From an uncultured Candidatus Saccharibacteria bacterium (GTDB lineage: Bacteria > Patescibacteriota > Minisyncoccia > Phycocordibacterales > PALSA-1337), in contig CAYIYK010000003.1 in the NCBI GenBank assembly GCA_964367745.1, forward strand, positions 10,248 through 74,247: a stretch of 64,000 bases of DNA, in the 5' to 3' direction. Numbering within the stretch: the first letter of the stretch is position 1; each line of letters opens with the position of its first letter. Both the position numbers and the translations under genes were made by a program. Below the pieces are notes generated by a model. The model saw only the letters and a list, made by a program, of their open reading frames with translations, ran no database searches and was not told where the DNA came from. This document shows positions 20,056 to 53,944 of this stretch, in pieces.

Positions 20056-20724
20056 ATGAAAATCCTGATTATTGAAGACGATGTAGATATTTCCAGTTTC
20101 ATAAAGGACAATCTTACAGAGAGTACATATTCAGTTGAAGTCGCAAAGGATGGACCTGATGGATCATTTCTGGCCAGAACAAATTATCACGATGTTATCA
20201 TAATGGATTATTCACTTCCTTCAAAAGACGGAGTTTTGGTTTGTGAAGAGATAAGATCATCAGGTGTTGAAACACCCATAATATTCCTAACCGTACATAC
20301 AGACGTCAAAAAGAAGGTTAAAGCATTAGAAAAAGGTGCGGATGACTATATGACTAAACCTTTCTCTATCGAAGAGTTAAAAGCGAGGATACAAGCTCTA
20401 GTGCGTAGACCTAGGAAAATCGAAAGTCCTGTACTGATAGTTGGAGACCTAGTTTTGGATACACACAAAAGAACAGTTAGAAGAGGTGAAACACCTATTT
20501 ATCTAACTAGAAAGACTTATGATCTATTGGAATATCTTATGAGGAATAAAGGTATAGTGCTTTCAAGGGGATCTATAATGGAATATGTATGGAACTCAGA
20601 TAGTGATCCATTCTCAAATACCATAGAAGCACATATCCTAAACCTCAGAAAGAAAATCAATGTTAGAGGTAAAAAGGATATACTAAAGAATATTCCAGGT
20701 AGAGGTTATATTATGGGGTCCTAA
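20056..20724 (+). CDS. OmpR/PhoB-family response regulator (receiver plus winged helix); no kinase nearby
   Basis: MKILIIEDD, IIMDYSLPSKDG, YMTKPF and a C-terminal wHTH (LTRKTYDLLEYLMRN ... GRGYIM). Confidence 0.9.
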   Translation: MKILIIEDDVDISSFIKDNLTESTYSVEVAKDGPDGSFLARTNYHDVIIMDYSLPSKDGVLVCEEIRSSGVETPIIFLTVHTDVKKKVKALEKGADDYMTKPFSIEELKARIQALVRRPRKIESPVLIVGDLVLDTHKRTVRRGETPIYLTRKTYDLLEYLMRNKGIVLSRGSIMEYVWNSDSDPFSNTIEAHILNLRKKINVRGKKDILKNIPGRGYIMGS

Positions 20725-22957
20725 ACTTACCTTCTTCTATTTGCTTTATAGCCTCATCTACTTGAGACTTTATAAGTGGGAATCTTTCTTTTGCTTTCTT
20801 TAGAAGTTCAATCGCTTGGTATTCTTGTTTACTCAATAGATAAACATAAGCTAGAGATGAATATACTTCTTGATTGTCTTGATCTTTAGCTAATATCTTC
20901 TTATATATTTCAATAGCTTTATCGTACTGTTTTGACAATACATAAGCATTTATAACTCTTGGATCGCTGAATACTTCGAAATCATCTCCAAATAGCTTCT
21001 TCGCTTTTACTTCTTCACCTGCCGTTATAAGAGCTGTAACGTAAGTAGTCTTGGCGATTGGATTGTCTGTTGCTGATTGATACGCTTTGTCTAATATCTC
21101 AACTGCTTCTTTATTTTTACCGATATTTAGATAGTTGACGGCTAGTTCAAATATTATACTTTGCTTGTTTGGAGAAAGTTCATTTGCTTTTTCAAGTAGT
21201 GGTGTAGCTGTATTAAAATCTCTTATAGTATCATAATAACTTCCACCAATAATATATATTCTTGCATCATTCGGAGTTTTCTTTATTTGATTTTCTATTT
21301 CTTTCTTTGCCAAATCGTAGAATGCAGCCTTTTTATCTTGTTGCATTTGTGGATTTTGTATTACATTTGCTGAACAATTTAATAGTTGCTCAACCGACTC
21401 TTGATTTGCAACTGTCTGTCTTAGTTTGAATATTTTTTCAAATGGTACTACTGATACTGTTTGAGGATTTGAACAAGCTATAAGTGCATTTATAAGTCCT
21501 GTATTCGCTTGTATAGCGCGCACATTCACAAAATACATTGAAGTAATGAATAAGATAACAACAACAGGTACATATACATAATCTCTTACTGTTTCAGCAT
21601 CTTCAGATATTGATTTGCTGTAATTTTTAAATATAAATAAATCTTTATTCTTTCTTAATGAATGAACAAAAGCGAGCAATGTAAAGAACATTACATAACT
21701 TGTTTGATTGTCGAATACGAATACATTGTGTATTGCATATCCTACCAATAGACCGATAAGTATAGATTTTTCACCAATAGTTTTTTCACTTTTAATGATA
21801 AAGATTAGAGAGATTAAATATAGAGCTAGATACGCAACTAATCCTAGTATTCCTCCGGCAACAAACCAATCTAGGAAAACACTGTGTGCTCGATCAAACC
21901 ATTGCTCATGTCTCCACATTTCAGGATTGTAATGTGAATTGAATATATAGTTAAAGTTCTCTTGCCCAACTCCGATAATTGCTGTCTTTGGGCTCTCTGT
22001 AATTCCCTTTATAGCCATAGGCCAAATAAATCTTCTTGCTTGAGTCTTTGTATCTGAAATAGATATAGAAGCCAATCTTCCCAATACTTCATTCTTTTGA
22101 ATCCAACTAGCATTTCTATTGAAATAAAATAGTGTACCGATAACAACTACTAGTAGAATAACTGAACCAGAAACTACTCTACTTATATTTGATTGACCAC
22201 TACTCTTTCTACCAAAAATTGTATAAATAGCACATGAAGCAATAATAGCAATCGTCCAACCTATGATAGTTCCTCGAGTTGCTGTTTGAAACATTATAAA
22301 AGAGAAAAATGCTGCGGCAATAGCATATGAATAGAACAAATGCTTCTTTGCAAAATAACTTATAGCCAAATATCCCGCAATAAATGCATTAAATAACATA
22401 TAAACCGCCATGTATGCAGAGTTACCTAGAGATGCATCGACTCTACTTCCTTGATGTGTTTCTGCCCAACCGAAAAACTGTGTTAGACCGTAAAGTGCAG
22501 TTATAAATCCAGAAACAATTACAACATTGAAAAACTTATGCCAACTCTCTTTTGTCTTAAGTACTGAAGATAGAACCATGAAATAACCCCAAAGGTGTAT
22601 TATCATCAACCAACCTTCCATTCTTTCGAAGTTTGACCAAATACTTCTAAGTGGATTTAGACCAGCTAAGTCAGCAATCAGAGCAATAAGAGTAAATATA
22701 CCTATAGAAATAGATATTGCATTGCATCGCGGAAGAACACTTCTATCTGTTCCGACAACACTAGTGCCTCTTTCTCTGAAAACAAGAATCAGCCATAGAG
22801 CAAAGACAATTTCAACAATTATTCTAAAAGCGAATCCTTTACCAGTGATGAATGGAAAGAATAAAGAATTAACGACGTAAGTTGGGATAAATGGGATTAC
22901 TGCTAAACCGATAATAATTGCGTATTTGATTAAAGTATTTATTGTTGCATTGTTCAT
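20711..22957 (-). CDS. O-antigen-ligase-like (Wzy_C) polytopic membrane protein with a C-terminal TPR domain
   Basis: 748 aa. About 12 TM helices include the Wzy_C-like block MFQTATRGTIIGW. The C-terminal ~270 aa carry TPR-like repeats (AFYDLAKK, ANELSPNK, AYQSATDN, IEIYKKILAKDQDN). Confidence 0.8.
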   Translation of the reverse strand: MNNATINTLIKYAIIIGLAVIPFIPTYVVNSLFFPFITGKGFAFRIIVEIVFALWLILVFRERGTSVVGTDRSVLPRCNAISISIGIFTLIALIADLAGLNPLRSIWSNFERMEGWLMIIHLWGYFMVLSSVLKTKESWHKFFNVVIVSGFITALYGLTQFFGWAETHQGSRVDASLGNSAYMAVYMLFNAFIAGYLAISYFAKKHLFYSYAIAAAFFSFIMFQTATRGTIIGWTIAIIASCAIYTIFGRKSSGQSNISRVVSGSVILLVVVIGTLFYFNRNASWIQKNEVLGRLASISISDTKTQARRFIWPMAIKGITESPKTAIIGVGQENFNYIFNSHYNPEMWRHEQWFDRAHSVFLDWFVAGGILGLVAYLALYLISLIFIIKSEKTIGEKSILIGLLVGYAIHNVFVFDNQTSYVMFFTLLAFVHSLRKNKDLFIFKNYSKSISEDAETVRDYVYVPVVVILFITSMYFVNVRAIQANTGLINALIACSNPQTVSVVPFEKIFKLRQTVANQESVEQLLNCSANVIQNPQMQQDKKAAFYDLAKKEIENQIKKTPNDARIYIIGGSYYDTIRDFNTATPLLEKANELSPNKQSIIFELAVNYLNIGKNKEAVEILDKAYQSATDNPIAKTTYVTALITAGEEVKAKKLFGDDFEVFSDPRVINAYVLSKQYDKAIEIYKKILAKDQDNQEVYSSLAYVYLLSKQEYQAIELLKKAKERFPLIKSQVDEAIKQIEEGKFRTP

Positions 22958-22992: not shown

Positions 22993-23940
22993 CTATTGAA
23001 ATTTCTTTAATTTATTGGCTATAAATATATCAGTATCTCTTCTAGATTCATAAGTCATACCTCCTGTATGTGGAGCGATGATTACATTTGAATATTCTTT
23101 TGCAAACTTCACTAATGGATGATTCTTGCAACTATTTTTTGTAAATAGAATCTCACCATCTAGAACGTCAGCTGTATAACCGGCAATCTTTTTTTGCTTT
23201 ATCATAGTCATCAAATCACCTTCATGAACTATTTTGCCTCTTGAAGTATTTATAAGATACGCAGTTTTCTTCATAAGACTCATAGTCTTTTTATTGAAAA
23301 GGAATTCTGTTTCTGGATTCAAATGTACGTGTATAGAAATAAAATCACTTTGTTTTATAAGCTCTTCGAAACTAACTTTTTTCCAATTTAGATTTGATGA
23401 TTCAACTTTTGGATCAGTGAATAGAACTTTCATACCCAAAGCCTCTCCATATCTTGCCATCCATTTTCCAAGTCTACCAAGTCCAACAACTCCCAATGTC
23501 TGACCATTCAGTGAATGCCCTTTGAACTTTTCTCTATTCCATTCCCCCTTTAGAACTGATTGAGTTGAACTAGGAATATGTCTTGAAGAAGATATGAGTA
23601 ATCCCAAAGCTAGTTCAGCAGTGCCAGTAATAGTATTTAGGAAATCATCTTCACCCTTTAGACTTAGAACTTTTATACCCTTTTCCTCAGCGTATTTTAA
23701 ATCGATATGATCCAAACCAGTTGTTGCGGTAACAAGGAACTTTAGATTTTTAGCTTTTGATAGGACTTCACTATTAAAGTTCAATCCCAAACCACAAACT
23801 ACTACATCATATTTTTCTATCTTTTTTAATAGTTCTTGATTTGTAGGTATAACATAATCAACCTTACCTAGAATGTTTAGAATCTTTTTTGCTTCAGGGT
23901 CGAAATCTTTACCGATTGTATTTAGTATTTTGTAGGCCAT
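22993..23940 (-). CDS. D-isomer-specific 2-hydroxyacid dehydrogenase family protein
   Basis: The NAD-binding motif is GVVGLGRLGKWMARYGEALGMKV. INTSRG and IIAPHTGG (catalytic His region) are also present. Confidence 0.85.
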   Translation of the reverse strand: MAYKILNTIGKDFDPEAKKILNILGKVDYVIPTNQELLKKIEKYDVVVCGLGLNFNSEVLSKAKNLKFLVTATTGLDHIDLKYAEEKGIKVLSLKGEDDFLNTITGTAELALGLLISSSRHIPSSTQSVLKGEWNREKFKGHSLNGQTLGVVGLGRLGKWMARYGEALGMKVLFTDPKVESSNLNWKKVSFEELIKQSDFISIHVHLNPETEFLFNKKTMSLMKKTAYLINTSRGKIVHEGDLMTMIKQKKIAGYTADVLDGEILFTKNSCKNHPLVKFAKEYSNVIIAPHTGGMTYESRRDTDIFIANKLKKFQ

Positions 23941-23978: not shown

Positions 23979-24422
23979 TTAAACCTTCGGCACCTTTATT
24001 ATAACCAACCTAGCTTTCGTAGAAGTCTTATGTTGATGTGGCTCTCCAGCAGGAATCCATAACCAATCTCCAGGTTTCATCACAACTTCTGTTCCACCCT
24101 TTATTTCTTTTGCTTTCCATTCCCTATCATCTATACTCCCATCAGCATTCTTTTTTACCCAAGGGTCTACCATTTCTCCTCCATAGATAAAGATAACTTC
24201 TCCTTCAAGACAAAACCATAGATCAGCTTCATGCTTGTGTATCTCTGCTTCATTTGAAATATTTATATCCTCCAATATATTCATAGGAACTTTATTCAAA
24301 GCAGAAAAAGCTTTTAGAGGTTCCAAAAGTTTTTTTGTTGGCGTGTCGGCACTAGGACTTGATAGAGTACTATCGATTAAATCTTTACTGATAAAAGCAC
24401 AATTTGATTTATTATTTTCCAT
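23979..24422 (-). CDS. Cupin-domain protein
   Basis: The two cupin motifs are HKHEADLWFCLEGEV and GDWLWIPAGEPHQH. Confidence 0.7.
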   Translation of the reverse strand: MENNKSNCAFISKDLIDSTLSSPSADTPTKKLLEPLKAFSALNKVPMNILEDINISNEAEIHKHEADLWFCLEGEVIFIYGGEMVDPWVKKNADGSIDDREWKAKEIKGGTEVVMKPGDWLWIPAGEPHQHKTSTKARLVIIKVPKV

Positions 24423-41814: not shown

Positions 41815-41817
41815 TTT

Positions 41818-45289: not shown

Positions 45290-45879
45290 TTTGTTGCGTA
45301 TAAATAATAACCGTAAGTTGTTGTCTTTTTTGCAGTACCAAAAATCTTATCCAAAATAGTTGATAATGGATGCAAAATAAATTTCAATTTATGTTGCATT
45401 GGAAAGAAGAAAGATAAGGTCTTAAAGTATCCTCCAGCTTTTATAAGTTCAACCTTAGAAAAGCCTTCGAACATAAATAATAACGAATCATCGAAGAATC
45501 TCCAATAGTCAGGATATGAGCCTTTTCTTGCATGGTATGGATATATAGAAGGAACATAAACAAATATCTTACCTCCCTTTTTCAATACCCTTTTTAGCTC
45601 CAAAACTGCTCTTATAGGGTCTTTTACATGCTCTAGCACCGAACTACATATAACAGCGTCTACACTTTCATCCTTTAATGGTATAGCGTGTATATCACCG
45701 ATAACATCTGCACCCGTATGTGCATCATAATCCATTGTCTTGTAATCACAGTTCTTAAATAGATCCTTATAAGGTTCTAGCCATTTCTGGAATCGATCGC
45801 CTCCACCAATATCTAATACGATCTTTTCTTTACTTATCAAAACCATCTTTTCATCTACAAATTTTTGATAGTGTGTCAT
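45286..45879 (-). CDS. Class I SAM methyltransferase (Methyltransf_11-like)
   Basis: VLDIGGGD and VDAVICSSVLEHVKDP ... LKKGGKIFV. Confidence 0.8.
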   Translation of the reverse strand: MTHYQKFVDEKMVLISKEKIVLDIGGGDRFQKWLEPYKDLFKNCDYKTMDYDAHTGADVIGDIHAIPLKDESVDAVICSSVLEHVKDPIRAVLELKRVLKKGGKIFVYVPSIYPYHARKGSYPDYWRFFDDSLLFMFEGFSKVELIKAGGYFKTLSFFFPMQHKLKFILHPLSTILDKIFGTAKKTTTYGYYLYATK

Positions 45880-47754: not shown

Positions 47755-48663
47755 ATGGATAAAAAACTAAATGTCGCAATAATCGGTATAGGTAAATGGG
47801 GTAAGAACCTAACTGAAGCTTTTTTGAGACAAGGTGCAAATATTAAATACTGTTTTAATAAAGGTTCAATAGAAAATGTAAAATGGTTAAAAGAAAAGCA
47901 TCCTGATATTGAACTAGCTTCAAGCTATGAAGATATTCTTTCAGACAAAACAATTGATTCAATAATAGTTGCTACTCCTATAAAGACTCACTTTGAAATT
48001 ACAAAAAAGGCTTTGCTAGCAAAAAAAAATGTTTTTCTTGAAAAACCTGGAACTGAGACTGTGGAAGAATTGGAAGAACTCAAAAAACTTCATGTAGATA
48101 ACGATCTAATACTTACTGTTGGTTATATTTTTGTACACCATCCAGTCTGCACATATATTAAAAAACTACTAAATAACGAGAAAATAATTAGTATACATTT
48201 CGAATGGAATAAATGGGGATCATTCGGAGAGGATATAATACTTAATCTTTTTTCACATGAGATTTCATTATTAAAAACTTTTGGTATAGATATTGAAGAA
48301 AAGACGATAAGTTTCGAAACCCATTCTCATATTTCTGAAAAAGATATTGTTGTATTTAATGCAGAGGGTAAAAATGGAGAAAAAATAACAATAAATATAA
48401 ATAGAGTGAGTTTGGATAAGAAAAAAACAGTCACTATTAAAACTAATAAGAACTCATACATTTGGCTAAATAATGAATTAAAAATTATTAATATGGATCA
48501 GATTAATACAAACATTGAAGTATCAAATGTGCCAGCATTAGATATTGAAGTTGCAAATTTTATATCTAATATACAAAACAAAAATAAGCCTTTAGTTGAT
48601 CTGGATTTTTCAATAGATGTACTTAAAACTACTTCTTTTTTATTAGATTCAAAACATCCTTAG
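47755..48663 (+). CDS. Gfo/Idh/MocA-family NAD(P) oxidoreductase
   Basis: LNVAIIGIGKWGKN is a Rossmann motif, and NVFLEKP is the family EKP motif. Confidence 0.75.
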   Translation: MDKKLNVAIIGIGKWGKNLTEAFLRQGANIKYCFNKGSIENVKWLKEKHPDIELASSYEDILSDKTIDSIIVATPIKTHFEITKKALLAKKNVFLEKPGTETVEELEELKKLHVDNDLILTVGYIFVHHPVCTYIKKLLNNEKIISIHFEWNKWGSFGEDIILNLFSHEISLLKTFGIDIEEKTISFETHSHISEKDIVVFNAEGKNGEKITININRVSLDKKKTVTIKTNKNSYIWLNNELKIINMDQINTNIEVSNVPALDIEVANFISNIQNKNKPLVDLDFSIDVLKTTSFLLDSKHP

Positions 48664-49675
48664 CTGCTTGAACACAGTTCCCTATTTTCCCAGAAAAAAC
48701 TTGTATTAGACGCTTATTTAACTTACTTACAATAGTTGGCCTTTCATCTGTCTTATCTTTATTTGGTAGTACCGTTCTTATTGTATACATTGAACCTATA
48801 TGTTCTGCTTTTGCCATATCGGGAATTATTTCTGAAGCAGATTTAAGAAATTTTTTGATATTTGTAATAGAAGGATCCTTAATTATCCCTTTATTTAAAA
48901 ATGGAACAATTTTTTTTGGAATCTTTGGAAAGGATCCGTTGTTTGTAGAATGTATAGCATGAACGACATTACCCATCACATGCATATCAGTCCTACCGTA
49001 AGGATCGATACAGAAAAATGGCCCATCTAAAATAACTATACTTTTTTTATTATATTCTTTAGGTAGTTTTATTAAGGGTTTTTCACAAACTTCAAATTGA
49101 TACTCATTGTGATTATCTTTGTTTTCTATAACAGAATTTAGATTGGCATAAGTACAATTTATAATATAATCATAATCATTTGAATTATTTGAAAAGCTTG
49201 TATTTAAAAATTGTTTTACTTTATTTTTATAAAGACGATTACTAACTATTTCTTTAAGTTTAGCGTGATCTATAATCGATTCTTTAACCCTAACGGATAG
49301 TTCGATCTTGTCTTTCTTTGCATGAGGCAAATCAACTATTTCAAAATCTAAATCACATCTTTTACAAAAATCCATGAATTGTTTAGCGGAAACCTTACTT
49401 CCTTGTGATGCTATACAATAATAATGCTCATTATCATTCACTACAGAATCTTTATACTCTTTTCTAAAAGAATTCTCTGAGTCACGAGAAGAAATAGCGG
49501 TCTCATCACTTCTTGGATAATGATAACCAACATGCAACCTAAACTGATTTGCACCAGATGCACCCATCAATATATCTGATTCTCTCTCAAAAATTTCAAC
49601 CTTAAAACCTTTTTCAGCAAGCTTGATAGCTACAGTAGTTCCAAATATTCCAGCTCCGACAACTGCGATTTTCAT
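48629..49675 (-). CDS. FAD-dependent oxidoreductase (DAO-like)
   Basis: MKIAVVGAGIFGTTVAIKLAEKGFKVEIFE is a dinucleotide-binding motif. Confidence 0.75.
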   Translation of the reverse strand: MKIAVVGAGIFGTTVAIKLAEKGFKVEIFERESDILMGASGANQFRLHVGYHYPRSDETAISSRDSENSFRKEYKDSVVNDNEHYYCIASQGSKVSAKQFMDFCKRCDLDFEIVDLPHAKKDKIELSVRVKESIIDHAKLKEIVSNRLYKNKVKQFLNTSFSNNSNDYDYIINCTYANLNSVIENKDNHNEYQFEVCEKPLIKLPKEYNKKSIVILDGPFFCIDPYGRTDMHVMGNVVHAIHSTNNGSFPKIPKKIVPFLNKGIIKDPSITNIKKFLKSASEIIPDMAKAEHIGSMYTIRTVLPNKDKTDERPTIVSKLNKRLIQVFSGKIGNCVQAAKDVLNLIKKK

Positions 49676-49676: not shown

Positions 49677-50687
49677 CTATTTTATTATCTTAAAAAGCTT
49701 GTCTGACAAAATAGACAATGAATGCTTGTTTGAAAAATCACTTAGTCTAGACAAAATATCCAATCGCTCTTTTTCAGAATAATTCATAACTCTCTCAATT
49801 TTATTTTTTAATTCATCTGTATCCCCTTGTTTAAAAATCAAATCATCACTTATTTCTCCTCTCAAATTATCATTTGAAGCAATAACAATACAACCACAAG
49901 CCATAGCCTCAAATATTGTCTTATCATACATTCCACTTGAAGATAGATTTATAAAAATTTCGTATTTAGAATATAGATCTATAGTTTCAATATTTGGAAC
50001 TCCTTTATGAAATTCTATTAATCCAGAAGATTTATTTTTTAATTCTTCATAATAAATTTTATCTTTTTCGATTGGATCACCGTAGACTGCAACTTTGATA
50101 CTTGGATCATTTATTTTATTTATTACATCTACTAAAACATGAATATTTTTTGAAGGTGATATTCTACCTATAGACAATATAGATTTTCCTAATCTAGTTA
50201 TATTTTTATTCGGTTTAAAGTTTTCTAAATCTACACCTACTGGCATTATTTCAGTCTTTCTGTATTTTGCTGTATATGAAAACTTAGATGTGCAAAACAC
50301 CTTTTTACAGAACATTGAAGCTATATCAGTAAGCATTGAACCTGAATGATGATTCCTCCACATGTATATATTCTTATTCATGATCTTCCACATAACTCCA
50401 GCGAGTAAGATATACTCTTGGTTCATATGAACAAAAACACTGTTGTATTCATTTCTCAATCGCCAAATATATTTATAAAAATTTAAAATATATTTTATCT
50501 TTGATTCCCCTTTTTCTTTACCCAAAGAAAATACTCTAACATTTTTAGGTAAATCGTATTCGCCTTTATAAAGACATATTACATTTACACTTTCATAGTT
50601 TTCTGAGAAAACTCTTACCCAATTATGAAAAAAGCCTAGTACAGGATCATTTTTATCAATCTTTTGAGTTATGATTAATAATTTCAT
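49677..50687 (-). CDS. GT4 (GT-B) glycosyltransferase
   Basis: The C-terminal block is YDKTIFEAMACGCIVIASN (the E..EAMA.G.PVI type). Confidence 0.75.
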   Translation of the reverse strand: MKLLIITQKIDKNDPVLGFFHNWVRVFSENYESVNVICLYKGEYDLPKNVRVFSLGKEKGESKIKYILNFYKYIWRLRNEYNSVFVHMNQEYILLAGVMWKIMNKNIYMWRNHHSGSMLTDIASMFCKKVFCTSKFSYTAKYRKTEIMPVGVDLENFKPNKNITRLGKSILSIGRISPSKNIHVLVDVINKINDPSIKVAVYGDPIEKDKIYYEELKNKSSGLIEFHKGVPNIETIDLYSKYEIFINLSSSGMYDKTIFEAMACGCIVIASNDNLRGEISDDLIFKQGDTDELKNKIERVMNYSEKERLDILSRLSDFSNKHSLSILSDKLFKIIK

Positions 50688-51775
50688 TTAATTTTATCTA
50701 TAATCTTTGAAGCTATATCTTCGCTTGTCCAATCGACAATACTTGCTCCTACATCCTTTGCGATACCTACGTCAGTTGAGATTATTTTGCAATTATTCGC
50801 TTCAGCTTCTTTGAATGTAAGACCGTAACCTTCATACCATGAACAAACTAGAAATACATCGCAACCTTTATAGTATGAGGTGAGATCAGTCTGCCACCCT
50901 TCAAATACAATATTTGATGAAATCTTCAGAATTTCAGATTTTCTTTTAAGATAATCCTGCATTGTTCCAGAACCGACAATCACGAGTCCTGTATCTGGTT
51001 TTTTAGCCAGAACAATCTTCATCGCATCTATAGCCATTGAGAAATTCTTTTCAGCTTCTATTCTTGAAACCATAAGAATGATATTTTTAAATTGAGGGAA
51101 TTTTTCTTTTAAAATAAAAGATGTTTTATCATTCTTTATATAATCAATATTTATATCTATAGGTTTTACTATTATATCTTCTGGATTAAATCCCCTTTTA
51201 GCTAGTGAATCTGCAATTTTATTTGATACTACTCTTATGATATTTGCATGATTTAAAGTAAAACGAGATATAAAAAGTCTTATTCTATTTAAAATAGAAT
51301 TCAAAATACCGATTCTTGCATCGACGAAATACGGACTATGCAGATCGGTATGTATTTGTATCAACAATTCAGAATTCTTTCTTTTACTATTTAGACATTT
51401 CCCCACCAAAGCGGTTTCAAAAGGATCTTGGCAAGTTATAAGTATTGGTATTTCTGAGTTTATTTCATTAATAATTTTTACACCGATCTTTCTCGCATCG
51501 CTTACATAGTTCCATCTTACAAATGATTTCGTAGAATAGATTTTGCAGTTTTTTGCTATTTCTTCATCATTAACTTTTGAATCTGAAAAGACAATAATAT
51601 GTAATTCTTTATATTGCTTTGAATATTCAAGCATTCTTCTTCTAACAGCACTTTTCTCTACAAGTATTTGTCTATCAGTTGAAATCATTATCACAGAATG
51701 ATTGGAATAATCTTTATATGTTGTTTTATAAACATTATTTGATTCTTTCATAAATCGAAATGATTTCATTCCCAA
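50684..51775 (-). CDS. GT4 (GT-B) glycosyltransferase; start uncertain
   Basis: SWYEGYGLTFKEAEANNCKIISTDVG is present. The track start overlaps the upstream gene by 41 nt, and internal Met codons (M9, M30) are alternatives. Confidence 0.7.
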   Translation of the reverse strand: MGMKSFRFMKESNNVYKTTYKDYSNHSVIMISTDRQILVEKSAVRRRMLEYSKQYKELHIIVFSDSKVNDEEIAKNCKIYSTKSFVRWNYVSDARKIGVKIINEINSEIPILITCQDPFETALVGKCLNSKRKNSELLIQIHTDLHSPYFVDARIGILNSILNRIRLFISRFTLNHANIIRVVSNKIADSLAKRGFNPEDIIVKPIDINIDYIKNDKTSFILKEKFPQFKNIILMVSRIEAEKNFSMAIDAMKIVLAKKPDTGLVIVGSGTMQDYLKRKSEILKISSNIVFEGWQTDLTSYYKGCDVFLVCSWYEGYGLTFKEAEANNCKIISTDVGIAKDVGASIVDWTSEDIASKIIDKIK

Positions 51776-52757
51776 TATTCTCCCAACTATGAACCCAATT
51801 AAACTTCTTTACCTTATCTGCTTGTATTTTTCTATTCTTAGGGTCAGATATCCAGACAATCTTTTCGACTATATCATTTTTATTCATTGGATCTATAAAA
51901 ATCGCGCAATCTTTTACTCTATCTGATATACCATTCTCTTTTGTAAGAATAAAAGGAGTACCAACTCTTATGGCGTCAAAAATCATATTTGGACTTATAT
52001 CGCCAATCGAATTTAAAATCACCGCATAAGATCGTCTCATTCTCTCTTGGAAATTATCATAGACTGCTTTTGTAGTATCGAATTCTATATCTTCAAAACC
52101 TTTTTCTTTGACTTTATCCTGAGCAATTTTAAATGAACTCTTTAACAATTCTAGATTCTTCCACTTCAATTCTCTTGTACCAGCAACAAAAACTCTATTC
52201 TCTGGCTCTATTTGTTCATCTCTTTCTCCACAGAAATTCTCAACGATCATATTCTTTTCTGAATCAAGTTTATATACTTTTTCAAAAATATCTCTTTGCC
52301 ATTTTGTACTAAATATTATTGCTGAAGCATTCCTCATAGAATCACCTCCAACTTTAAATATTACTTTTTCTTTTTTAGATAGCTTATTAAGTGATGTATT
52401 ATAGAAATTTTTAAATAAAACCAAGTCTCCTGTTCTTTCAACATAATTTTCCCATAAGAAATCTCCTCCAGTTCTTATGATGTATTTTTTCCTCATAAGC
52501 TTGCAGGCATACATAGTAGGTACTGCTGCACTCCATGTATCAAGTACGAGTATCAAATCCGCATTCCATCCTTTTCTAAAAATCTTTAGAAAAAATAAAA
52601 AGTGTCTGAGGAATTTTGGGAATGCTCTCTCCCAACGATATGCAGCAACTTTTACATCATGACCCTGCTTTTTCCAGGTTTCATAAAGATTTCTAGCATA
52701 TTGAGCTGGACCACCAATATCTGGTGGATATATTCCTGATGAGATTAGAATTTTCAT
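51735..52757 (-). CDS. GT4-like (GT-B) glycosyltransferase
   Basis: MKILISSGIYPPDIGGPAQYARNL at the N-terminus and FDAIRVGTPFILTKENG in the C-terminal domain. Confidence 0.7.
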   Translation of the reverse strand: MKILISSGIYPPDIGGPAQYARNLYETWKKQGHDVKVAAYRWERAFPKFLRHFLFFLKIFRKGWNADLILVLDTWSAAVPTMYACKLMRKKYIIRTGGDFLWENYVERTGDLVLFKNFYNTSLNKLSKKEKVIFKVGGDSMRNASAIIFSTKWQRDIFEKVYKLDSEKNMIVENFCGERDEQIEPENRVFVAGTRELKWKNLELLKSSFKIAQDKVKEKGFEDIEFDTTKAVYDNFQERMRRSYAVILNSIGDISPNMIFDAIRVGTPFILTKENGISDRVKDCAIFIDPMNKNDIVEKIVWISDPKNRKIQADKVKKFNWVHSWENIGNEIISIYERIK

Positions 52758-53944
52758 ATTACCTTTAAGAATACCTTATTCTTCATATCACTTGCAATGA
52801 GGTTCCATTGATACTTTCTTTCTACCATATCCAAAGCATTTTTGACTATTTTCTCTTTTAAACTCTTATCATTTAAAAGCATTTCAACTTTCCAAGCTAT
52901 GCTCTTTGGATTTTTTACTTCACACAAAAGGCCTGTTTCTCCATCTTTAAGAAAATCTACTATTCCTCCAACCGGTGTTGCTATAACAGGAATTCCAGCA
53001 GCCATCGCTTCTATATATGAATTACCAAAACCTTCAGACAAAGATGGTCTTATGAAAATATCTGATACATGGAGATATTTTGGCATATCTACATGTTTAA
53101 CAAAACCTAAGAAGATCACTCTGTTATCGAGATTTAATCTCTTAGTTCTTTGCTTTAGCATTTCTTCTTCATGACCTGTACCCAAGACAAGGAATTTAAC
53201 ATTTTCTGGTAGATATGTTAGAGAATCAATGATATCTATAGTTGCATTTTTCTCAACCAATCTACTTGTAGTTACAATAAAAATATCTTTATCTTTTTTA
53301 TTCAGACTCTTTTTTAAATCATTAAATTCATTTTCATTTTTTCTATTTGAAAATAGAGAAAAATTCACGCCATTTGGTACAACAACAATCGGTGAACTTG
53401 CTCCCATATTTTTTGACCAGGTTGATAGGAAATTTGATATTACTTGAACAATATCCGCCTTTCTAAAAATCCTCATGAAAGATGATTTGAATATTCCTTG
53501 GCGAATCTTGAAGTTATCACCTTCTTGTATTGAAAGTACAAATGGAATATTTGGATTGAATATTTTAAATAAATAACCAGCAAAACCAGCATAACTTGCC
53601 ATCATTGACCATACTAAATCGTATTTATTTTTTCTATTTAGTTGTAGTGCCTTTATAAAAGCAAAAACTGGAAAAGTTAGTTTTGATAATGGGAATATCT
53701 TTGAACTTTTTGTATTACTACCAAACCAAGGCATACCAGCTCTATATACATTTATATTCCCTATTCTTTCAAATTTAGGAGCCTGTTTTCTTAAGGTTAT
53801 CATATCGAATTCCATATCAGACGGAAGGATACGATCAGTAATTTCTTTAATCGCTATTTCTGCCCCACCTATGAATCTTGGATAGTAAACTAGCGAAAAA
53901 ATGAGTATTTTCTTACTTTTTTGTTCATTTTTTACTTGTTCCAT
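52754..53944 (-). CDS. GT4 (GT-B) glycosyltransferase
   Basis: YYPRFIGGAEIAIKE and PSLSEGFGNSYIEAMAAGIPVIATPVGG. Confidence 0.85.
   Translation of the reverse strand: MEQVKNEQKSKKILIFSLVYYPRFIGGAEIAIKEITDRILPSDMEFDMITLRKQAPKFERIGNINVYRAGMPWFGSNTKSSKIFPLSKLTFPVFAFIKALQLNRKNKYDLVWSMMASYAGFAGYLFKIFNPNIPFVLSIQEGDNFKIRQGIFKSSFMRIFRKADIVQVISNFLSTWSKNMGASSPIVVVPNGVNFSLFSNRKNENEFNDLKKSLNKKDKDIFIVTTSRLVEKNATIDIIDSLTYLPENVKFLVLGTGHEEEMLKQRTKRLNLDNRVIFLGFVKHVDMPKYLHVSDIFIRPSLSEGFGNSYIEAMAAGIPVIATPVGGIVDFLKDGETGLLCEVKNPKSIAWKVEMLLNDKSLKEKIVKNALDMVERKYQWNLIASDMKNKVFLKVI

What the first reader, a model, noticed from the sequence alone, without database searches (positions are those of the whole stretch)
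20711..53944. 33-kb surface-glycan megacluster fills half the window
From 20.7 to 53.9 kb almost every gene is glycan-related. The set comprises:
- a Wzy_C-TPR protein
- a 2-hydroxyacid dehydrogenase and a cupin
- NeuB-NeuA and NeuC
- three P-type transferases
- six methyltransferases (three Zn-ribbon, one foreign, one TylF-like, one type-11)
- a PhyH dioxygenase
- GT9, Wzx, two GT-C enzymes, a GtrB-like GT2 and GtrA
- another GT2 and five GT4 enzymes
- Gfo/Idh/MocA and FAD oxidoreductases

For an organism with such compact intergenic spacing this is a very large investment. No LPS-core, lipid A, capsule-export (Wza/Wzc, KpsMT) or teichoic-acid export (TagGH) genes are present in the window. 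The acceptor is therefore more likely a protein (pilin or S-layer) or a lipid-anchored glycan of a monoderm-type envelope.

Two assembly routes appear to coexist. One is cytoplasmic build-up, Wzx flipping and Wzy_C transfer. The other is an outside-facing polyprenol-P-sugar route (GtrB-like, GtrA and GT-C).
Basis: partly seen in the sequence, partly recalled or inferred. Interest (0 to 1): 0.6.

Follow-up and report, generated by a model that had tools for sequence, protein, structure and literature searches.

The report
Variable surface-sugar gene island in CPR bacterium
Half of this window from an ultra-small, uncultured (Patescibacteria/CPR) bacterium is one real 33-39 kb block of genes for building cell-surface sugars, including a sialic-acid-like sugar. 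It sits between a conserved sugar-attaching membrane enzyme and the pilus genes, and probably decorates surface proteins such as the pili these bacteria are thought to use to bind their hosts.

Summary
Only one to three genes look foreign. Independent assemblies reproduce most of the gene order.

The organism is a Paceibacteria/Taylorbacteria-like CPR bacterium.

What the tools add:
- The three "P-type" (TagF-like) transferases belong to the family of the Tannerella forsythia pseudaminic/legionaminic acid transferases. One homologue is fused to a CMP-sugar synthetase. They are best read as transferases for a sialic-acid-like nonulosonic acid (NulO), not teichoic-acid enzymes.
- The Wzy_C-TPR protein has the WaaL ligase fold and an outward-facing TPR domain. 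It has more than 3400 Patescibacteria homologues. It anchors a hypervariable glycan locus that is Wzx-type or Wzm/Wzt-type in relatives, so it is a terminal ligase or oligosaccharyltransferase, not a polymerase.
- The unannotated 474-aa gene is a PMT_2-type GT-C.
- Outside the given coordinates, a 12-TM protein directly after the major pilin gene is a GT-C-fold enzyme. It is pilin-linked in 10 of 10 close homologues, like P. aeruginosa pilA-tfpW.
- A DedA-PAP2 fusion next to the ligase is a candidate lipid-carrier recycler.

The acceptor, the exact sugar and the priming enzyme remain unknown. This is a new variant of known glycosylation systems, of moderate interest.

The parts
18642..19925 (-). 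VTT(DedA)-PAP2 fusion membrane protein. Candidate polyprenyl-PP phosphatase plus polyprenyl-P re-flipping module (lipid-carrier recycling).
   Evidence: Pfam VTT_dom 6.7e-17 and PAP2 1.7e-17. About 9 TM segments. Syntenic with Wzy_C-TPR in 12 relatives. DedA proteins act as Und-P flippases (PMC9876793, PMC10127716). The role here is inferred.
20056..20724 (+). OmpR-type response regulator, convergent with and overlapping the 3' end of Wzy_C-TPR. Possible regulator; its membership of the system is uncertain.
   Evidence: Pfam Response_reg plus Trans_reg_C. Conserved next to Wzy_C-TPR in relatives.
20711..22957 (-). Wzy_C-TPR: WaaL-fold polytopic transferase (13 TM) with an extracytoplasmic C-terminal TPR domain. 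Conserved anchor of the island; proposed terminal ligase or O-oligosaccharyltransferase.
22993..23940 (-). D-2-hydroxyacid dehydrogenase (PGDH/glyoxylate-reductase-like). Conserved member of the NulO module; its step is unknown.
   Evidence: Pfam 2-Hacid_dh_C 2.1e-49. NCBIfam hits all below cut-offs. Co-occurs with the NulO genes in L005, L008, L015, L085, L086 and a JGI contig.
23979..24422 (-). Small cupin with a weak YhcH/N-acetylneuraminate-anomerase-like hit. Accessory gene: present in L015, absent in the closest relatives.
   Evidence: Pfam Cupin_2 7.5e-10 and DUF386 4.7e-4. NF040884 at 4.7e-4, below cut-off. Indel relative to L005 and L085.
24432..26312 (-). NeuB-NeuA fusion: nonulosonic acid synthase plus CMP-NulO synthetase.
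   Evidence: Pfam NeuB 4.2e-66, SAF, CTP_transf_3 1.1e-27. NCBIfam NeuB 252 bits, PseI 214 and PseF 172, all below equivalog cut-offs. PDB best hit is N. meningitidis NeuB at 160 bits, and CMP-Neu5Ac synthetases.
26409..27347 (-). Class I methyltransferase, recently acquired (foreign composition).
   Evidence: Pfam Methyltransf_12/25. GC 0.483 and GC3 0.508. Absent from L005, L008 and L085.
27524..28477 (+). EamA/DMT-superfamily 10-TM transporter. Conserved in the NulO module; substrate unknown. Its 5' half is replaced relative to relatives.
   Evidence: Pfam EamA 5.7e-7. About 10 TM segments. Present in L085, L086 and the JGI contig. Only 59-61% identical to the closest relatives, and GC3 0.41.
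28536..29693 (-). NeuC: hydrolysing UDP-sugar 2-epimerase, the first committed step of NulO synthesis.
   Evidence: TIGR03568 342.7 bits, above the 235.9 cut-off. PDB hits LegG-type epimerase 190.7 and the human GNE epimerase domain 185.5.
29697..30680 (-). Zn-ribbon SAM methyltransferase MT_b, paired with the NulO transferases.
   Evidence: Pfam Methyltransf_23 2e-13. CxxC at residues 16 and 42. 40% identical to MT_c.
30682..32040 (-). NulOT1: TagB/TagF-fold, BFO_1060-family putative CMP-NulO transferase.
   Evidence: Pfam Glyphos_transf 8.3e-11. NF046086 52.7 bits. Paralogue of NulOT2 and NulOT3.
32037..33365 (-). NulOT2: second putative CMP-NulO transferase.
   Evidence: Pfam Glyphos_transf 1.7e-8. 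NF046086 47.8 bits, and only a weak TarL hit at 5.3e-5.
33365..34312 (-). Zn-ribbon methyltransferase MT_c. The start is revised to Met41 of the ORF 33365-34432.
   Evidence: Pfam Methyltransf_23 2.3e-14. CxxC pairs. The orthologue in L085 is 315 aa.
34384..35520 (+). Zn-ribbon methyltransferase MT_d. The start is revised from the TTG at 34231. Part of a 2.1-kb cassette specific to this lineage.
   Evidence: Pfam Methyltransf_23 4.5e-14. CxxC pairs. Region 34355-36467 is absent from L005, L008 and L085.
35521..36471 (-). PhyH-family Fe(II)/2-oxoglutarate dioxygenase, in the same lineage-specific cassette. Possible sugar hydroxylase.
   Evidence: Pfam PhyH 9.8e-5, 23.2 bits against a 22 cut-off. 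Indel evidence.
36479..37873 (-). NulOT3: third putative CMP-NulO transferase and the best match to the BFO_1060 family. The true start is probably about 10-20 codons downstream.
   Evidence: NF046086 82.9 bits and TIGR04396 44.3 bits. 161 homologues; every one that carries a source name is from Patescibacteria. 19 of 19 aligned members hit NF046086. Homologue P0109 is fused to a PseF-like cytidylyltransferase. No PDB sequence hit.
37874..38992 (+). GT9-family glycosyltransferase.
   Evidence: Pfam Glyco_transf_9 1.2e-17. Heptosyltransferase models all below cut-off.
38978..40366 (-). Wzx-type (MOP) flippase.
   Evidence: Pfam Polysacc_synt 2.5e-7, 30.9 bits against a 28.2 cut-off. Orthologues in L085 and the JGI contig.
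40390..41814 (+). GT-C glycosyltransferase, a divergent PMT_2/ArnT-like type. It is not a Wzy polymerase.
   Evidence: No direct Pfam hit. 4143 relatives. 45 of 50 aligned homologues hit PF13231 PMT_2. Invariant D46 in 'VDAxAYD'.
41818..43476 (+). GT-C glycosyltransferase (PMT_2-like).
   Evidence: Pfam PMT_2 8.6e-5, 23.2 bits, below the 26.1 cut-off. The orthologue in L085 carries PMT_2 and weak PMT hits. About 11 TM segments.
43476..44240 (+). Polyprenol-phosphate sugar synthase (DPMS/GtrB/PpgS-like GT2).
   Evidence: Pfam Glycos_transf_2 1.1e-24. PDB P. furiosus Dol-P-Man synthase 1e-26, plus ArnC and GtrB. NCBIfam PpgS, PgfS, AglJ and ArnC below cut-offs.
44172..44603 (-). GtrA-family small membrane protein (polyprenol-P-sugar flippase candidate).
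   Evidence: Pfam GtrA_DPMS_TM 3.8e-25.
44600..45289 (-). TylF-type sugar O-methyltransferase.
   Evidence: Pfam TylF 7.7e-26.
45286..45879 (-). Methyltransf_11 methyltransferase.
   Evidence: Pfam 3.6e-15.
45884..46573 (-). Second polyprenol-phosphate hexose synthase-like GT2 (AglJ-like).
   Evidence: Pfam Glycos_transf_2 9.1e-30. NCBIfam AglJ 119.5 bits and Dol-P-hexose transferase 57 bits, both below cut-offs.
46570..47709 (-). GT4 glycosyltransferase a.
   Evidence: Pfam Glycos_transf_1 and Glyco_transf_4.
47755..48663 (+). Gfo/Idh/MocA sugar oxidoreductase. Best match is the archaeal UDP-GlcNAc 3-dehydrogenase model, far below cut-off.
   Evidence: Pfam GFO_IDH_MocA 7.8e-21. NF040723 62.5 bits against a 450 cut-off.
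48629..49675 (-). FAD-dependent oxidoreductase.
   Evidence: Pfam DAO 1.2e-11, N-terminal FAD-binding fold only.
49677..53944 (-). Four tandem, overlapping GT4 glycosyltransferase genes (49677-50687, 50684-51775, 51735-52757, 52754-53944).
   Evidence: Pfam Glycos_transf_1 and Glyco_transf_4. GT4_d is a paralogue of GT4_a at 2.7e-37.
55876..57444 (-). Pilin-linked GT-C-fold glycosyltransferase: a new family with no Pfam, NCBIfam or PDB sequence hit.
   Evidence: AF2 pLDDT 90.2 and pTM 0.90. The top 24 Foldseek PDB hits are all GT-C enzymes (AftA 2.5e-8, DPY19, STT3/PglB, ArnT). D48 and E50 are invariant in the close subfamily and more than 90% conserved family-wide; they lie in the first outer loop. 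hhalign to the PMT_2-type family gives 85.8% probability and aligns the catalytic Asp. It lies 9-173 bp downstream of a GFTLIEL prepilin gene in all 10 loci with at least 41% identity.
57496..57975 (-). Major type IVa pilin, the last gene of the PilB-RR-PilT-PilC-pilin run. Candidate glycosylation target.
   Evidence: Pfam N_methyl 2.3e-9. Sequence KGFTLIELLVV..., C-terminus ...NATACPAS. 80% identical in L089, where the motor proteins are 99% identical.

Best explanation
This is a hypervariable cell-surface glycosylation island of a Paceibacteria/Taylorbacteria-like CPR bacterium. It lies between a lineage-conserved WaaL-fold transferase (Wzy_C-TPR) and the type IV pilus operon.

Shown by domains, folds and synteny:

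1. NulO module. NeuC plus a NeuB-NeuA fusion make a CMP-activated nonulosonic (sialic-acid-like) sugar. A Neu5Ac-type sugar is the most parsimonious, because no dehydratase or aminotransferase genes are present. Three conserved, non-redundant BFO_1060/TagB-fold transferases sit next to Zn-ribbon methyltransferases.

2. Cytoplasmic glycosyltransferases (five GT4 and a GT9) and a Wzx flippase.

3. Outside-facing module. Two polyprenol-phosphate sugar synthases, GtrA and two PMT_2-type GT-C enzymes.

4. A third GT-C, of a new family, fixed immediately downstream of the major pilin gene.

5. A DedA-PAP2 fusion beside the ligase.

Inferred mechanism:
- An unidentified priming enzyme, encoded elsewhere, starts an oligosaccharide on polyprenyl phosphate.
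- The GT4 and GT9 enzymes extend it. The three transferases add O-methylated NulO residues from CMP-NulO.
- Wzx flips the lipid-linked glycan.
- Wzy_C-TPR transfers it en bloc to a conserved non-LPS acceptor. A surface protein is most likely, recognised through the outward TPR domain.
- The released polyprenyl-PP is dephosphorylated and flipped back by the PAP2-DedA fusion.
- In parallel, single sugars loaded on polyprenyl-P are flipped by GtrA. GT-C enzymes use them outside the membrane to decorate the glycan or proteins, and the pilin-linked GT-C modifies pilin.

Gene content turns over by cassette gain and loss, as in O-antigen loci.
For: Taxon:
- All 80 closest loci of the Wzy_C-TPR gene are Patescibacteria MAGs.

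Inventory:
-.

NulO pathway:
- NeuC scores above the curated cut-off.
- NeuB and NeuA domains are present.

NulO transferases:
- All three hit NF046086, at 48-83 bits.
- 19 of 19 aligned family members hit it and 17 of 19 hit TIGR04396, against one weak TarL hit.
- The founding members Tanf_01245 and TFUB4_00887 are genetically required for the terminal Pse/Leg residue and carry a TagB-superfamily domain (PMC5420450).
- Homologue P0109 is a fusion with a PseF-like CMP-NulO synthetase and sits beside NeuC.
- The only cytidylyltransferase in the window and in related modules is NeuA.

Wzy_C-TPR:
- Pfam hit above cut-off.
- Invariant Arg and His residues in the outer loop.
- Topology places the loop and the TPR domain outside.
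- Conserved in at least 3471 proteins.
- The neighbouring 5 kb in 27 relatives holds Wzx (13 ORFs) or Wzm/Wzt-type ABC exporter genes (ABC2_membrane 7, Wzt_C 5), together with GT2, GT4, methyltransferase and NDP-sugar genes. A Wzy polymerase would not pair with ABC-exported glycans.

Island behaviour:
- The left flank is syntenic while the right side is variable.
- Three cassette indels separate the window from 85-92% identical relatives.
- Foreign GC is confined to MT_a and EamA.

Assembly:
- Independent contigs L005, L085 and L089.

GT-C route:
- DPMS, ArnC and GtrB hits.
- PpgS, PgfS and AglJ hits.
- GtrA.
- PMT_2 in 45 of 50 homologues of the 474-aa protein.

Pilin-linked GT-C:
-.
- The pilin and this GT-C diverge together (80% and 83%), whereas the motor proteins are 99% identical.
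Against: - No priming phosphoglycosyltransferase (Bac_transf or WecA/MraY type) is present in the 64 kb.
- The NF046086 scores are far below the 200-bit cut-off. NulOT1 and NulOT2 lack the His of the HP motif: RFQP and RLPP, against RMHP in NulOT3.
- The sugar identity is unresolved. NeuB, PseI and PseF all score below equivalog cut-offs. NeuC matches a Leg-pathway epimerase and human GNE equally well.
- Wzy_C-TPR is 35 kb from the pilin gene here and is not near pilus genes in relatives. Its acceptor is therefore unknown and could be a lipid or the cell wall.
- The pilin's C-terminal Ser, which would suit a TfpO-type site, is not conserved.
- The pilin-linked GT-C lacks the TPR domain of TfpW, and the donor sugar is not identified.
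- The roles of 2-Hacid_dh, EamA, cupin, PhyH, GFO and the FAD enzyme are unassigned.
- No biochemical data exist.
Confidence: 0.6

Rival explanations
1. The glycan is not attached to protein. Wzy_C-TPR ligates the flipped oligo- or polysaccharide to a membrane glycolipid or lipoglycan anchor, or hands it to the cell wall. This would give a lipid-anchored or wall-bound secondary polymer, a functional analogue of LPS O-antigen or lipoteichoic acid in a monoderm. Only the pilin-linked GT-C acts on protein.
For: - The closest solved fold is WaaL, a lipid-directed ligase.
- The gene is universal in the lineage and independent of pilus loci.
- It pairs with Wzm/Wzt-type polysaccharide exporters in relatives.
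- It is adjacent to a lipid-carrier/PAP2 gene.
Against: - No lipid A or core genes are present.
- TPR domains usually bind proteins and are periplasmic in the pilin transferase TfpW.
- Wzy_C enzymes in the PglL, TfpO, TfpM and PglS families are protein O-OTases (PMC9829042).
- Nothing in the window encodes a candidate lipid anchor pathway.
Confidence: 0.25
2. The three TagF-like enzymes are genuine polyol-phosphate transferases (a primase and polymerases). The island then makes a teichoic-acid-like anionic polymer, with the NulO as a minor substituent added by another enzyme.
For: - Pfam Glyphos_transf hits for two of the three.
- A weak TarL/TarB hit for NulOT2.
- Source annotations read 'CDP-glycerol glycerophosphotransferase family'.
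- Three paralogues recall the TagB/TagF division of labour.
- NulOT1 and NulOT2 lack the sialyltransferase-type His-Pro motif.
Against: - There is no TagD, TarI or TarJ (CDP-glycerol or CDP-ribitol synthesis), no TagGH, and no TagO or TagA in the window or in related modules.
- All 19 tested family members match the NulO-transferase family model, against a single weak Tar hit.
- A homologue is fused to a CMP-NulO synthetase.
- The genes always travel with NeuC, NeuB and NeuA.
Confidence: 0.12
3. The region is a chimeric or mosaic mis-assembly of several organisms' glycan genes.
For: - GC varies from 0.27 to 0.48 across genes.
- MT_a and EamA are clear compositional outliers.
- The 47.8-55.3 kb stretch has no independent copy.
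Against: - GC3 and codon usage are uniform for all other genes.
- Three independent assemblies from other samples reproduce 10.5-47.8 kb and 55.3-61.9 kb collinearly at 83-92% nt identity.
- Genes overlap or abut by 0-4 bp across the unreplicated junctions.
- A more distant 648-kb contig has the same module order.
Confidence: 0.02

Closest known systems
Tannerella forsythia general protein O-glycosylation locus, with CMP-Pse/Leg genes and the NulO transferase Tanf_01245/TFUB4_00887 (BFO_1060 family)
   Same: - NulO synthesis genes lie next to a TagB-fold transferase, with a methyltransferase in between.
- Many glycosyltransferases and methyltransferases and a Wzx sit in one locus.
- The glycan is destined for surface proteins (PMC5420450, PMC5378307, PMC6120980).
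- The window's three transferases hit the NCBIfam model built on this family.
   Different: - The host is a diderm Bacteroidota member.
- It has one transferase adding one terminal NulO, against three conserved paralogues here.
- Its Pse/Leg pathways need dehydratase, aminotransferase and acetyltransferase genes, which are absent here.
- Scores here are far below the family cut-off (48-83 against 200 bits).
- Here a WaaL-fold-TPR enzyme and GT-C enzymes are part of the locus.
Pseudomonas aeruginosa pilin glycosylation: pilA-tfpW (GT-C, D-arabinofuranose) and pilA-tfpO (Wzy_C O-OTase)
   Same: - A polytopic glycosyltransferase gene lies immediately downstream of the major pilin gene.
- TfpW is GT-C with an acidic motif in an outer loop.
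- TfpW also carries an outward TPR domain, as the window's Wzy_C protein does.
- TfpO, TfpM and PglL share the Wzy_C domain with a conserved His (bioRxiv 10.1101/2020.04.19.049825, PMC9829042).
   Different: - The window's pilin-linked GT-C has a small alpha/beta C-terminal domain, not a TPR domain.
- No D-Araf (DprE1/2) genes are present.
- Sequence homology to TfpW could not be tested.
- The Wzy_C-TPR gene is not adjacent to pilin and is much larger (748 aa) than TfpO or TfpM (about 425-460 aa).
- The organism is a monoderm-type CPR bacterium.
Streptococcal Pgf/GtrB-GT-C protein O-glycosylation and phage gtrABC O-antigen modification
   Same: - A polyprenol-P-sugar synthase (GtrB/PgfS-like GT2), a small flippase (GtrA) and outside-acting GT-C enzymes are present.
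- In streptococci the targets are surface adhesins and Ser/Thr-rich regions of membrane proteins (PMC5856776, PMC12041528).
- The window's GT2 hits the PgfS, PpgS, AglJ and ArnC models.
   Different: - Two synthases and three GT-C enzymes are present here.
- The 254-aa synthase lacks the C-terminal TM helices of GtrB and resembles the archaeal DPMS catalytic domain most closely.
- The targets are unknown.
WaaL O-antigen ligase (Cupriavidus metallidurans, PDB 7TPJ) and the Wzx- or ABC-dependent O-antigen loci it serves
   Same: - An outer catalytic loop carries conserved Arg and His residues.
- A conserved ligase serves a hypervariable, low-GC glycan gene cluster of either Wzx or Wzm/Wzt type.
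   Different: - The acceptor cannot be lipid A-core. No LPS genes were found, and a Patescibacteria envelope lacks an outer membrane.
- There is an extra 13th TM helix and a 270-residue outward TPR domain.
- Sequence identity is 15%.
Wall teichoic acid TagB/TagF glycerophosphotransferases
   Same: GT-B TagF-like fold and Pfam Glyphos_transf hits. Both use a CMP-leaving-group donor.
   Different: No CDP-polyol synthesis, TagO/TagA or TagGH genes are present. The proteins match the NulO-transferase family better than the Tar/Tag models.

Membership tests
NeuC/NeuB/NeuA nonulosonic (sialic-acid-type) biosynthesis | Hydrolysing UDP-sugar 2-epimerase (NeuC/NnaA) | tested here: met
   TIGR03568 scores 342.7 bits against a cut-off of 235.9. 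PDB hits are hydrolysing epimerases only.
NeuC/NeuB/NeuA nonulosonic (sialic-acid-type) biosynthesis | PEP-condensing NulO synthase and CMP-NulO synthetase | tested here: met
   Pfam NeuB 223 bits, SAF, CTP_transf_3 98 bits. PDB hits are N. meningitidis NeuB and CMP-Neu5Ac synthetases.
NeuC/NeuB/NeuA nonulosonic (sialic-acid-type) biosynthesis | Assignment to one sugar (Neu5Ac, legionaminic or pseudaminic acid) by equivalog model | tested here: inconclusive
   NeuB_NnaB scores 252 (cut-off 400), PseI 214 (cut-off 340) and PseF 172 (cut-off 206). NeuC matches LegG and GNE equally.
Legionaminic/pseudaminic acid pathways | 4,6-dehydratase, aminotransferase and N-acetyltransferase genes making the 2,4-diamino hexose precursor | tested here: not met
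   None are present in the 64-kb window or in the related modules L085, L086 and the JGI contig. The rest of the genome was not seen.
BFO_1060 / Tanf_01245 nonulosonic acid transferases | Match to NCBIfam NF046086 at or above its 200-bit cut-off | tested here: not met
   Scores are 52.7, 47.8 and 82.9 bits. All 19 family members hit the model, the best at 6e-28, but below cut-off. They are remote relatives, not members by the curated criterion.
BFO_1060 / Tanf_01245 nonulosonic acid transferases | TagB-superfamily GT-B domain plus a His-Pro CMP-binding motif | tested here: inconclusive
   Glyphos_transf hits for two of the three. RMHP is present in NulOT3 and its orthologues, but NulOT1 has RFQP and NulOT2 has RLPP.
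BFO_1060 / Tanf_01245 nonulosonic acid transferases | Genomic linkage to CMP-NulO synthesis genes | tested here: met
   Adjacent to NeuC and NeuB-NeuA here and in L005, L008, L015, L085, L086 and the JGI contig. Fused to a PseF-like domain in P0109.
BFO_1060 / Tanf_01245 nonulosonic acid transferases | CMP-NulO-dependent transfer activity | not testable with these tools
   Needs an enzyme assay.
Wzy_C enzymes (WaaL ligase / PglL-TfpO O-OTases / Wzy) | Wzy_C domain and a WaaL-like 12-TM fold with a large outer loop | tested here: met
   [not shown]
Wzy_C enzymes (WaaL ligase / PglL-TfpO O-OTases / Wzy) | Conserved catalytic His and Arg residues in the outer loop | tested here: met
   R294, R308, D355, R356 and H358 are invariant in 42 sequences. 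The loop 280-359 is predicted to be outside. That these are the same positions as the WaaL or PglL catalytic residues is inferred, not checked by superposition.
TfpO/TfpM pilin-specific O-OTases | Gene immediately downstream of the cognate pilin, which ends in Ser or Thr | tested here: not met
   Wzy_C-TPR is 35 kb from the pilin gene and is unlinked to pilus genes in relatives. The window's pilin ends in Ser, but its orthologues end in ...CPAN and ...NC.
WaaL O-antigen ligase sensu stricto | Lipid A-core acceptor (LPS pathway present) | tested here: not met
   No lipid A, Kdo or core genes are in the window. The whole genome was not seen.
Wzy O-antigen polymerase | Works only with Wzx-flipped repeat units, usually with a Wzz/PCP chain-length regulator | tested here: not met
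   No PCP/Wzz is present. Orthologues in relatives sit beside Wzm/Wzt ABC exporter genes (ABC2_membrane 7, Wzt_C 5).
GT-C glycosyltransferases (pilin-linked, TfpW-like) | GT-C fold | tested here: met
   The top 24 Foldseek PDB hits are all GT-C, with probability 1.00 and TM 0.46-0.59, from a model with pLDDT 90. hhalign to the PMT_2-type family gives 85.8% probability.
GT-C glycosyltransferases (pilin-linked, TfpW-like) | Acidic catalytic motif in the first extracytoplasmic loop | tested here: met
   D48 and E50 are invariant in the close subfamily and more than 90% conserved family-wide. D48 aligns with the invariant D46 of the PMT_2-type family.
GT-C glycosyltransferases (pilin-linked, TfpW-like) | Gene immediately downstream of the major pilin gene | tested here: met
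   True of 10 of 10 loci with at least 41% identity, with gaps of 9-173 bp. Relatives at 33% identity or less are not pilin-linked.
GT-C glycosyltransferases (pilin-linked, TfpW-like) | C-terminal periplasmic TPR domain and D-Araf donor pathway (TfpW proper) | tested here: not met
   The C-terminal approximately 90 residues form an alpha/beta domain. No DprE1/2-like genes are in the window.
GT-C glycosyltransferases (pilin-linked, TfpW-like) | Sequence homology to TfpW | not testable with these tools
   The TfpW sequence could not be fetched.
Gtr/Pgf-type polyprenol-P-sugar route | GtrB-like synthase, GtrA and GT-C encoded together | tested here: met
   The genes 40390-44603 are contiguous and conserved in L085 and the JGI contig.
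Wzx-dependent lipid-linked oligosaccharide assembly | Priming phosphoglycosyltransferase (WbaP/PglC or WecA type) | tested here: not met
   No Bac_transf or Glycos_transf_4 hit is present in any ORF of at least 100 aa.
Wall teichoic acid pathway (TagB/TagF) | CDP-glycerol or CDP-ribitol synthesis (TagD/TarIJ), TagO/TagA and the TagGH exporter | tested here: not met
   None are present in the window or in related modules.

The most novel reading that the evidence does not exclude
Paceibacteria (CPR) coat their type IV pili and other surface proteins with strain-variable glycans capped by an O-methylated oligo-sialic-acid-like (nonulosonic) motif.

Three parts would be new:
- a lineage-wide WaaL-fold-TPR enzyme acting as a general protein O-oligosaccharyltransferase of monoderm-type ultra-small bacteria;
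- a triple set of TagF-fold NulO transferases building an oligo-NulO chain;
- a previously unrecognised GT-C family dedicated to pilin.

Because the island, the pilin and the pilin-linked GT-C all turn over quickly between near-identical strains, this glycan coat would be a main determinant of host range and of phage or predator evasion in episymbiotic CPR bacteria.
Probability: 0.25. Interest if true: 0.75.

Novelty: new variant of a known kind. Interest (0 to 1): 0.55.

Why it matters
- CPR/Patescibacteria make up a large share of bacterial diversity. All cultivated members live attached to host cells, and type IV pili and surface structures are thought to mediate that contact.
- Their surface chemistry is essentially unknown. 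The only Patescibacteria pilus study found calls pilin glycosylation 'unexplored' (bioRxiv 10.1101/2024.11.25.624915). No paper in the searched library links these bacteria to nonulosonic acid synthesis or O-antigen-ligase-type enzymes.
- This locus gives concrete, testable candidates:
  - a conserved terminal transferase present in thousands of CPR genomes;
  - a pilin-linked GT-C family;
  - a sialic-acid-like pathway with three dedicated transferases.
- It also shows that a genome of roughly 1 Mb (typical for the group; not measured here) spends 33-39 kb on a fast-evolving glycan coat. That points to strong selection from hosts, phages or grazers.
- The TagF-fold NulO transferases and the WaaL-fold-TPR enzyme could also be useful glycoengineering parts.

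Tried and rejected
- PDB sequence searches for the pilin-linked 522-aa protein and for NulOT3 gave nothing significant.
- The afdb50 fold library was unavailable.
- Exact-protein look-ups found no record for the window's TraG-like protein, for GT4_e or for P0121. The junction at 53.9 kb could therefore not be independently confirmed.
- The first metagenome scan, with the full alignment A1, failed for lack of a conserved stretch. It worked with the closer subset A8.
- Rejected: the 474-aa unannotated membrane protein as the missing Wzy polymerase. 45 of 50 homologues are PMT_2 GT-C.
- Rejected as evidence: the pilin's C-terminal Ser as a TfpO/TfpM-type site. It is not conserved in orthologues.
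- Rejected: sialyltransferase-type motifs as a discriminator. The HP motif is present only in NulOT3, and my recollection is that TagF-family enzymes also carry conserved active-site histidines.
- I looked in the T. forsythia NulO paper for a dehydrogenase that could explain the conserved 2-hydroxyacid dehydrogenase, for example N-glyceroyl formation. There is no such link.
- No IS elements or long direct or inverted repeats flank the cassette indels.
- No tRNA genes and no Rfam RNA families are present in the window.
It was redone with 131 ORFs.

Full report
OBSERVATION

The window has 58 substantial ORFs, 95.7% coding density, GC of about 0.29-0.40 and no tRNA or Rfam RNA.
- Wzy_C+TPR;
- 2-hydroxyacid dehydrogenase and cupin;
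- a NeuB-SAF-NeuA fusion, and NeuC (above the curated NCBIfam cut-off);
- two Glyphos_transf proteins plus a third paralogue;
- six methyltransferases, three with double CxxC Zn ribbons, one TylF, one type 11, and one with foreign composition (GC 0.48, GC3 0.51);
- PhyH, GT9, Wzx, GtrA, two GT2 and five GT4;
- Gfo/Idh/MocA and FAD oxidoreductases.

The 28 flanking genes are housekeeping on the left (RNR, GroES/EL, RNase J, enolase and others) and a type IV pilus operon on the right. They carry no Pfam glycosyltransferase domain. No LPS, capsule-export or TagGH genes occur in the window.

ORGANISM AND ASSEMBLY

A genome scan with the Wzy_C-TPR protein found 364 relatives. All 80 that were listed lie in Patescibacteria MAGs (Paceibacteria, Taylorbacteria, Parcubacteria; 38-92% identity over the full length).

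Per-gene GC3 is 0.13-0.29 throughout. The exceptions are MT_a, EamA and one unrelated gene at 5834-6628.

Independent assemblies reproduce most of the region:
- L005 is collinear with window 10.5-36.7 kb.
- Logan contig L085 is collinear with 22.8-47.8 kb.
- Logan contig L089 is collinear with 55.3-61.9 kb.
- A 648-kb JGI contig at about 72% identity has the same module order.

The mis-assembly refutation therefore fails. Only 47.8-55.3 kb lacks an independent copy, and the genes there overlap or abut by 0-4 bp.

THE ISLAND IS VARIABLE AND ITS ANCHOR IS CONSERVED

In relatives, the left flank is syntenic with Wzy_C-TPR. This flank comprises the OmpR-type regulator, the VTT-PAP2 fusion, histidine phosphatase, enolase, MFS, RNase J and SBP5. 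The other side differs. The NulO module is present only in L005, L008 and L015, and partly in L016, L077 and L080.

I took 131 ORFs from the 5 kb next to Wzy_C-TPR in 27 relatives that lack the module. They are still glycan genes:
- Wzx in 13 ORFs;
- ABC_tran in 13, ABC2_membrane in 7 and Wzt_C in 5;
- GT2 in 14 and GT4 in 6;
- methyltransferases in about 15 and FkbM in 10;
- NDP-sugar epimerase or dehydratase in 3.

Against 85-92% identical relatives, the window carries three private cassettes:
- the cupin (23949-24421);
- MT_a plus a new 5' half of EamA (26333-27737; high GC);
- MT_d plus PhyH (34355-36467).

No repeats or IS elements flank them. This is the behaviour of an O-antigen-type locus next to a conserved ligase.

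WZY_C-TPR

The family is very large, with 3471 hits at E<=1e-10, and highly conserved, with about 90 invariant columns in 42 sequences.

Positive-inside counting gives 14 K+R in the loops assigned to the inside and 3 in those assigned to the outside. This places the catalytic loop 280-359 (invariant R294, R308, D355, R356 and H358) and the TPR domain outside the membrane.

Orthologues sit beside both Wzx-type and Wzm/Wzt-type loci, and there is no Wzz. I therefore read the protein as a terminal ligase or oligosaccharyltransferase, not a polymerase. This is inference.

The acceptor is unknown. WaaL itself uses lipid A-core, which is not encoded here. PglL, TfpO, TfpM and PglS use proteins (PMC9829042). 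The pilin transferase TfpW also carries a periplasmic TPR domain.

NULO MODULE

NeuC passes TIGR03568 (342.7 against 235.9). The NeuB and NeuA domains score best against the Neu5Ac enzymes but fall below every equivalog cut-off. NeuC matches a Leg-pathway epimerase and human GNE equally well. No dehydratase, aminotransferase or acetyltransferase genes occur here or in related modules, so a Neu5Ac-type sugar is the most parsimonious reading. It is not proven.

The three TagF-like proteins are 25-30% identical to each other, and each is conserved in relatives at roughly 54-95% (L085, L005, L008). All three hit NCBIfam NF046086, the 'BFO_1060 family glycosyltransferase' model. BFO_1060 is the strain 92A2 homologue of Tanf_01245 and TFUB4_00887. 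Knock-outs of those genes lose the terminal Pse or Leg residue of the T. forsythia O-glycan, and the proteins carry a TagB-superfamily domain (PMC5420450).

Further support:
- 19 of 19 aligned family members hit NF046086 and 17 of 19 hit TIGR04396, against one weak TarL hit.
- Homologue P0109 fuses this domain to a PseF-like CMP-NulO synthetase and lies beside NeuC, a 2-hydroxyacid dehydrogenase and EamA.
- No CDP-polyol genes exist in any of these modules.

I therefore reinterpret the 'P-type transferases' as CMP-NulO transferases, with about 0.7 confidence. Two caveats apply: the scores are far below the 200-bit cut-off, and NulOT1 and NulOT2 lack the His of the HP motif.

The pairing of Zn-ribbon methyltransferases with transferases mirrors the methyltransferase between the Leg genes and the transferase in T. 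forsythia UB4. It suggests O-methylated NulO residues.

Three things remain unexplained: why there are three transferases, and what the conserved 2-hydroxyacid dehydrogenase and EamA do.

POLYPRENOL-P-SUGAR ROUTE

- The GT2 at 43476-44240 is most similar to the P. furiosus Dol-P-Man synthase (1e-26), ArnC and GtrB, and to the PpgS, PgfS and AglJ models.
- The GT2 at 45884-46573 matches AglJ and Dol-P-hexose transferase.
- GtrA is clear.
- The 552-aa protein is PMT_2-like (orthologue).
- The unannotated 474-aa protein has 4143 relatives, of which 45 of 50 sampled hit PMT_2. It is a GT-C, not a Wzy polymerase.

OUTSIDE THE GIVEN COORDINATES

First, the 522-aa, 12-TM protein at 55876-57444 has no Pfam, NCBIfam or PDB sequence hit and only 28 homologues.
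- Its AF2 model (pLDDT 90.2) matches only GT-C enzymes in its top 24 Foldseek hits: AftA, DPY19, STT3/PglB/AglB and ArnT.
- Its conserved D48 and E50 in the first outer loop align with the invariant Asp of the PMT_2-type family (hhalign 85.8%).
- In all 10 loci where the homologue is at least 41% identical, a GFTLIEL-type prepilin gene ends 9-173 bp upstream. The order is PilB-RR-PilT-PilC-pilin-GT-C, followed in L087, L088 and L092 by minor pilin genes, and in L087 and L088 also by PilD.
- More distant relatives are not pilin-linked.
- This is the arrangement of P. aeruginosa pilA-tfpW.
- In L089 the motor proteins are 99% identical to the window's, but the pilin is 80% identical and this GT-C 83%. 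The pair evolves as a unit.

Second, the VTT(DedA)-PAP2 fusion at 18642-19925 is syntenic with Wzy_C-TPR. It combines a family shown to flip undecaprenyl phosphate (PMC9876793, PMC10127716) with a PAP2 phosphatase. It is a plausible recycler of the carrier released by the ligase. This is inference.

WHAT IS MISSING

- There is no priming phosphoglycosyltransferase.
- There is no identified acceptor.
- There is no assigned role for the GFO, FAD, PhyH and cupin enzymes.

VERDICT

The locus is built from known kinds of parts. What is new is the combination and the lineage:
- a CPR glycan island anchored by a WaaL-fold-TPR enzyme;
- a NeuC/NeuB-NeuA pathway with three BFO_1060-like transferases;
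- a new pilin-linked GT-C family.

The literature searches found no prior description of these features in Patescibacteria. I rate it a new variant of a known kind, with interest 0.55.

Noticed in passing
window 5834-6628 (+): A 264-aa ORF with one TM segment and no Pfam hit is a compositional outlier (GC 0.405, GC3 0.42, against 0.13-0.29 for its neighbours). It is probably a recent horizontal acquisition unrelated to the glycan island.
   Followed up: no
window 53949-55823 (-): A soluble TraG/VirD4/TraD-like ATPase with no TM segment is wedged between the pilin-linked GT-C and the glycan island. It has weak NCBIfam hits, including the CedD DNA-translocating ATPase. In L078 a 42% homologue lies directly next to Wzy_C-TPR. 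It may relate to DNA uptake or transfer through the pilus.
   Followed up: partly
window 60382-60768 (-); L087, L088, L089, L090, L092: A stand-alone CheY-type receiver gene sits between PilB and PilT in every type IV pilus operon examined.
   Followed up: partly
L089:1-6620 vs window 55279-61901: This contig comes from sample SRR30451292, which also yielded a contig with a 100% identical GroEL (L004). PilB, RR and PilT are 99% identical to the window's and PilC is 95%, but the pilin is only 80% and the adjacent GT-C 83%. This suggests allele replacement or diversifying selection on the pilin and GT-C pair.
   Followed up: partly
L086:3478-5556 (protein P0109): A natural fusion of a NulOT-like transferase domain with a PseF-like CMP-NulO synthetase (692 aa). 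It is flanked by NeuC, a 2-hydroxyacid dehydrogenase, EamA, a methyltransferase and a second TagF-like gene.
   Followed up: yes
window 22993-23940 and 27524-28477: A D-2-hydroxyacid dehydrogenase and an EamA/DMT transporter travel with NeuC, NeuB, NeuA and the transferases in every related module seen. No known NulO pathway step requires either of them.
   Followed up: partly
window 8133-8819 (-) and 62513-62878 (-): Two small proteins have an N-terminal membrane anchor followed by a Ser/Thr/Pro-rich linker. In streptococci, GtrB and GT-C systems O-glycosylate regions of this kind.
   Followed up: no
L005-L084 record titles: Many of the closest MAGs are titled 'uncultured Candidatus Saccharibacteria'. 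Their named nearest relatives are Taylorbacteria, Paceibacteria and Parcubacteria. These titles should not be used for taxonomy.
   Followed up: no
L094-L101, L104, L105: Distant relatives of the pilin-linked GT-C (33% identity or less) are not next to pilin genes. Where neighbours could be identified (L094, L098, L099, L100, L105), they lie near GT4 or methyltransferase genes. The pilin-linked group is therefore a specialised subfamily of a broader, unannotated GT-C family.
   Followed up: partly
window 33365-34432 (-) and 34231-35520 (+): The longest-ORF calls for MT_c and MT_d overlap by 200 bp. Orthologue length and sequence suggest later starts (Met41, giving 33365-34312, and Met52, giving 34384-35520), which removes the overlap.
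   Followed up: partly
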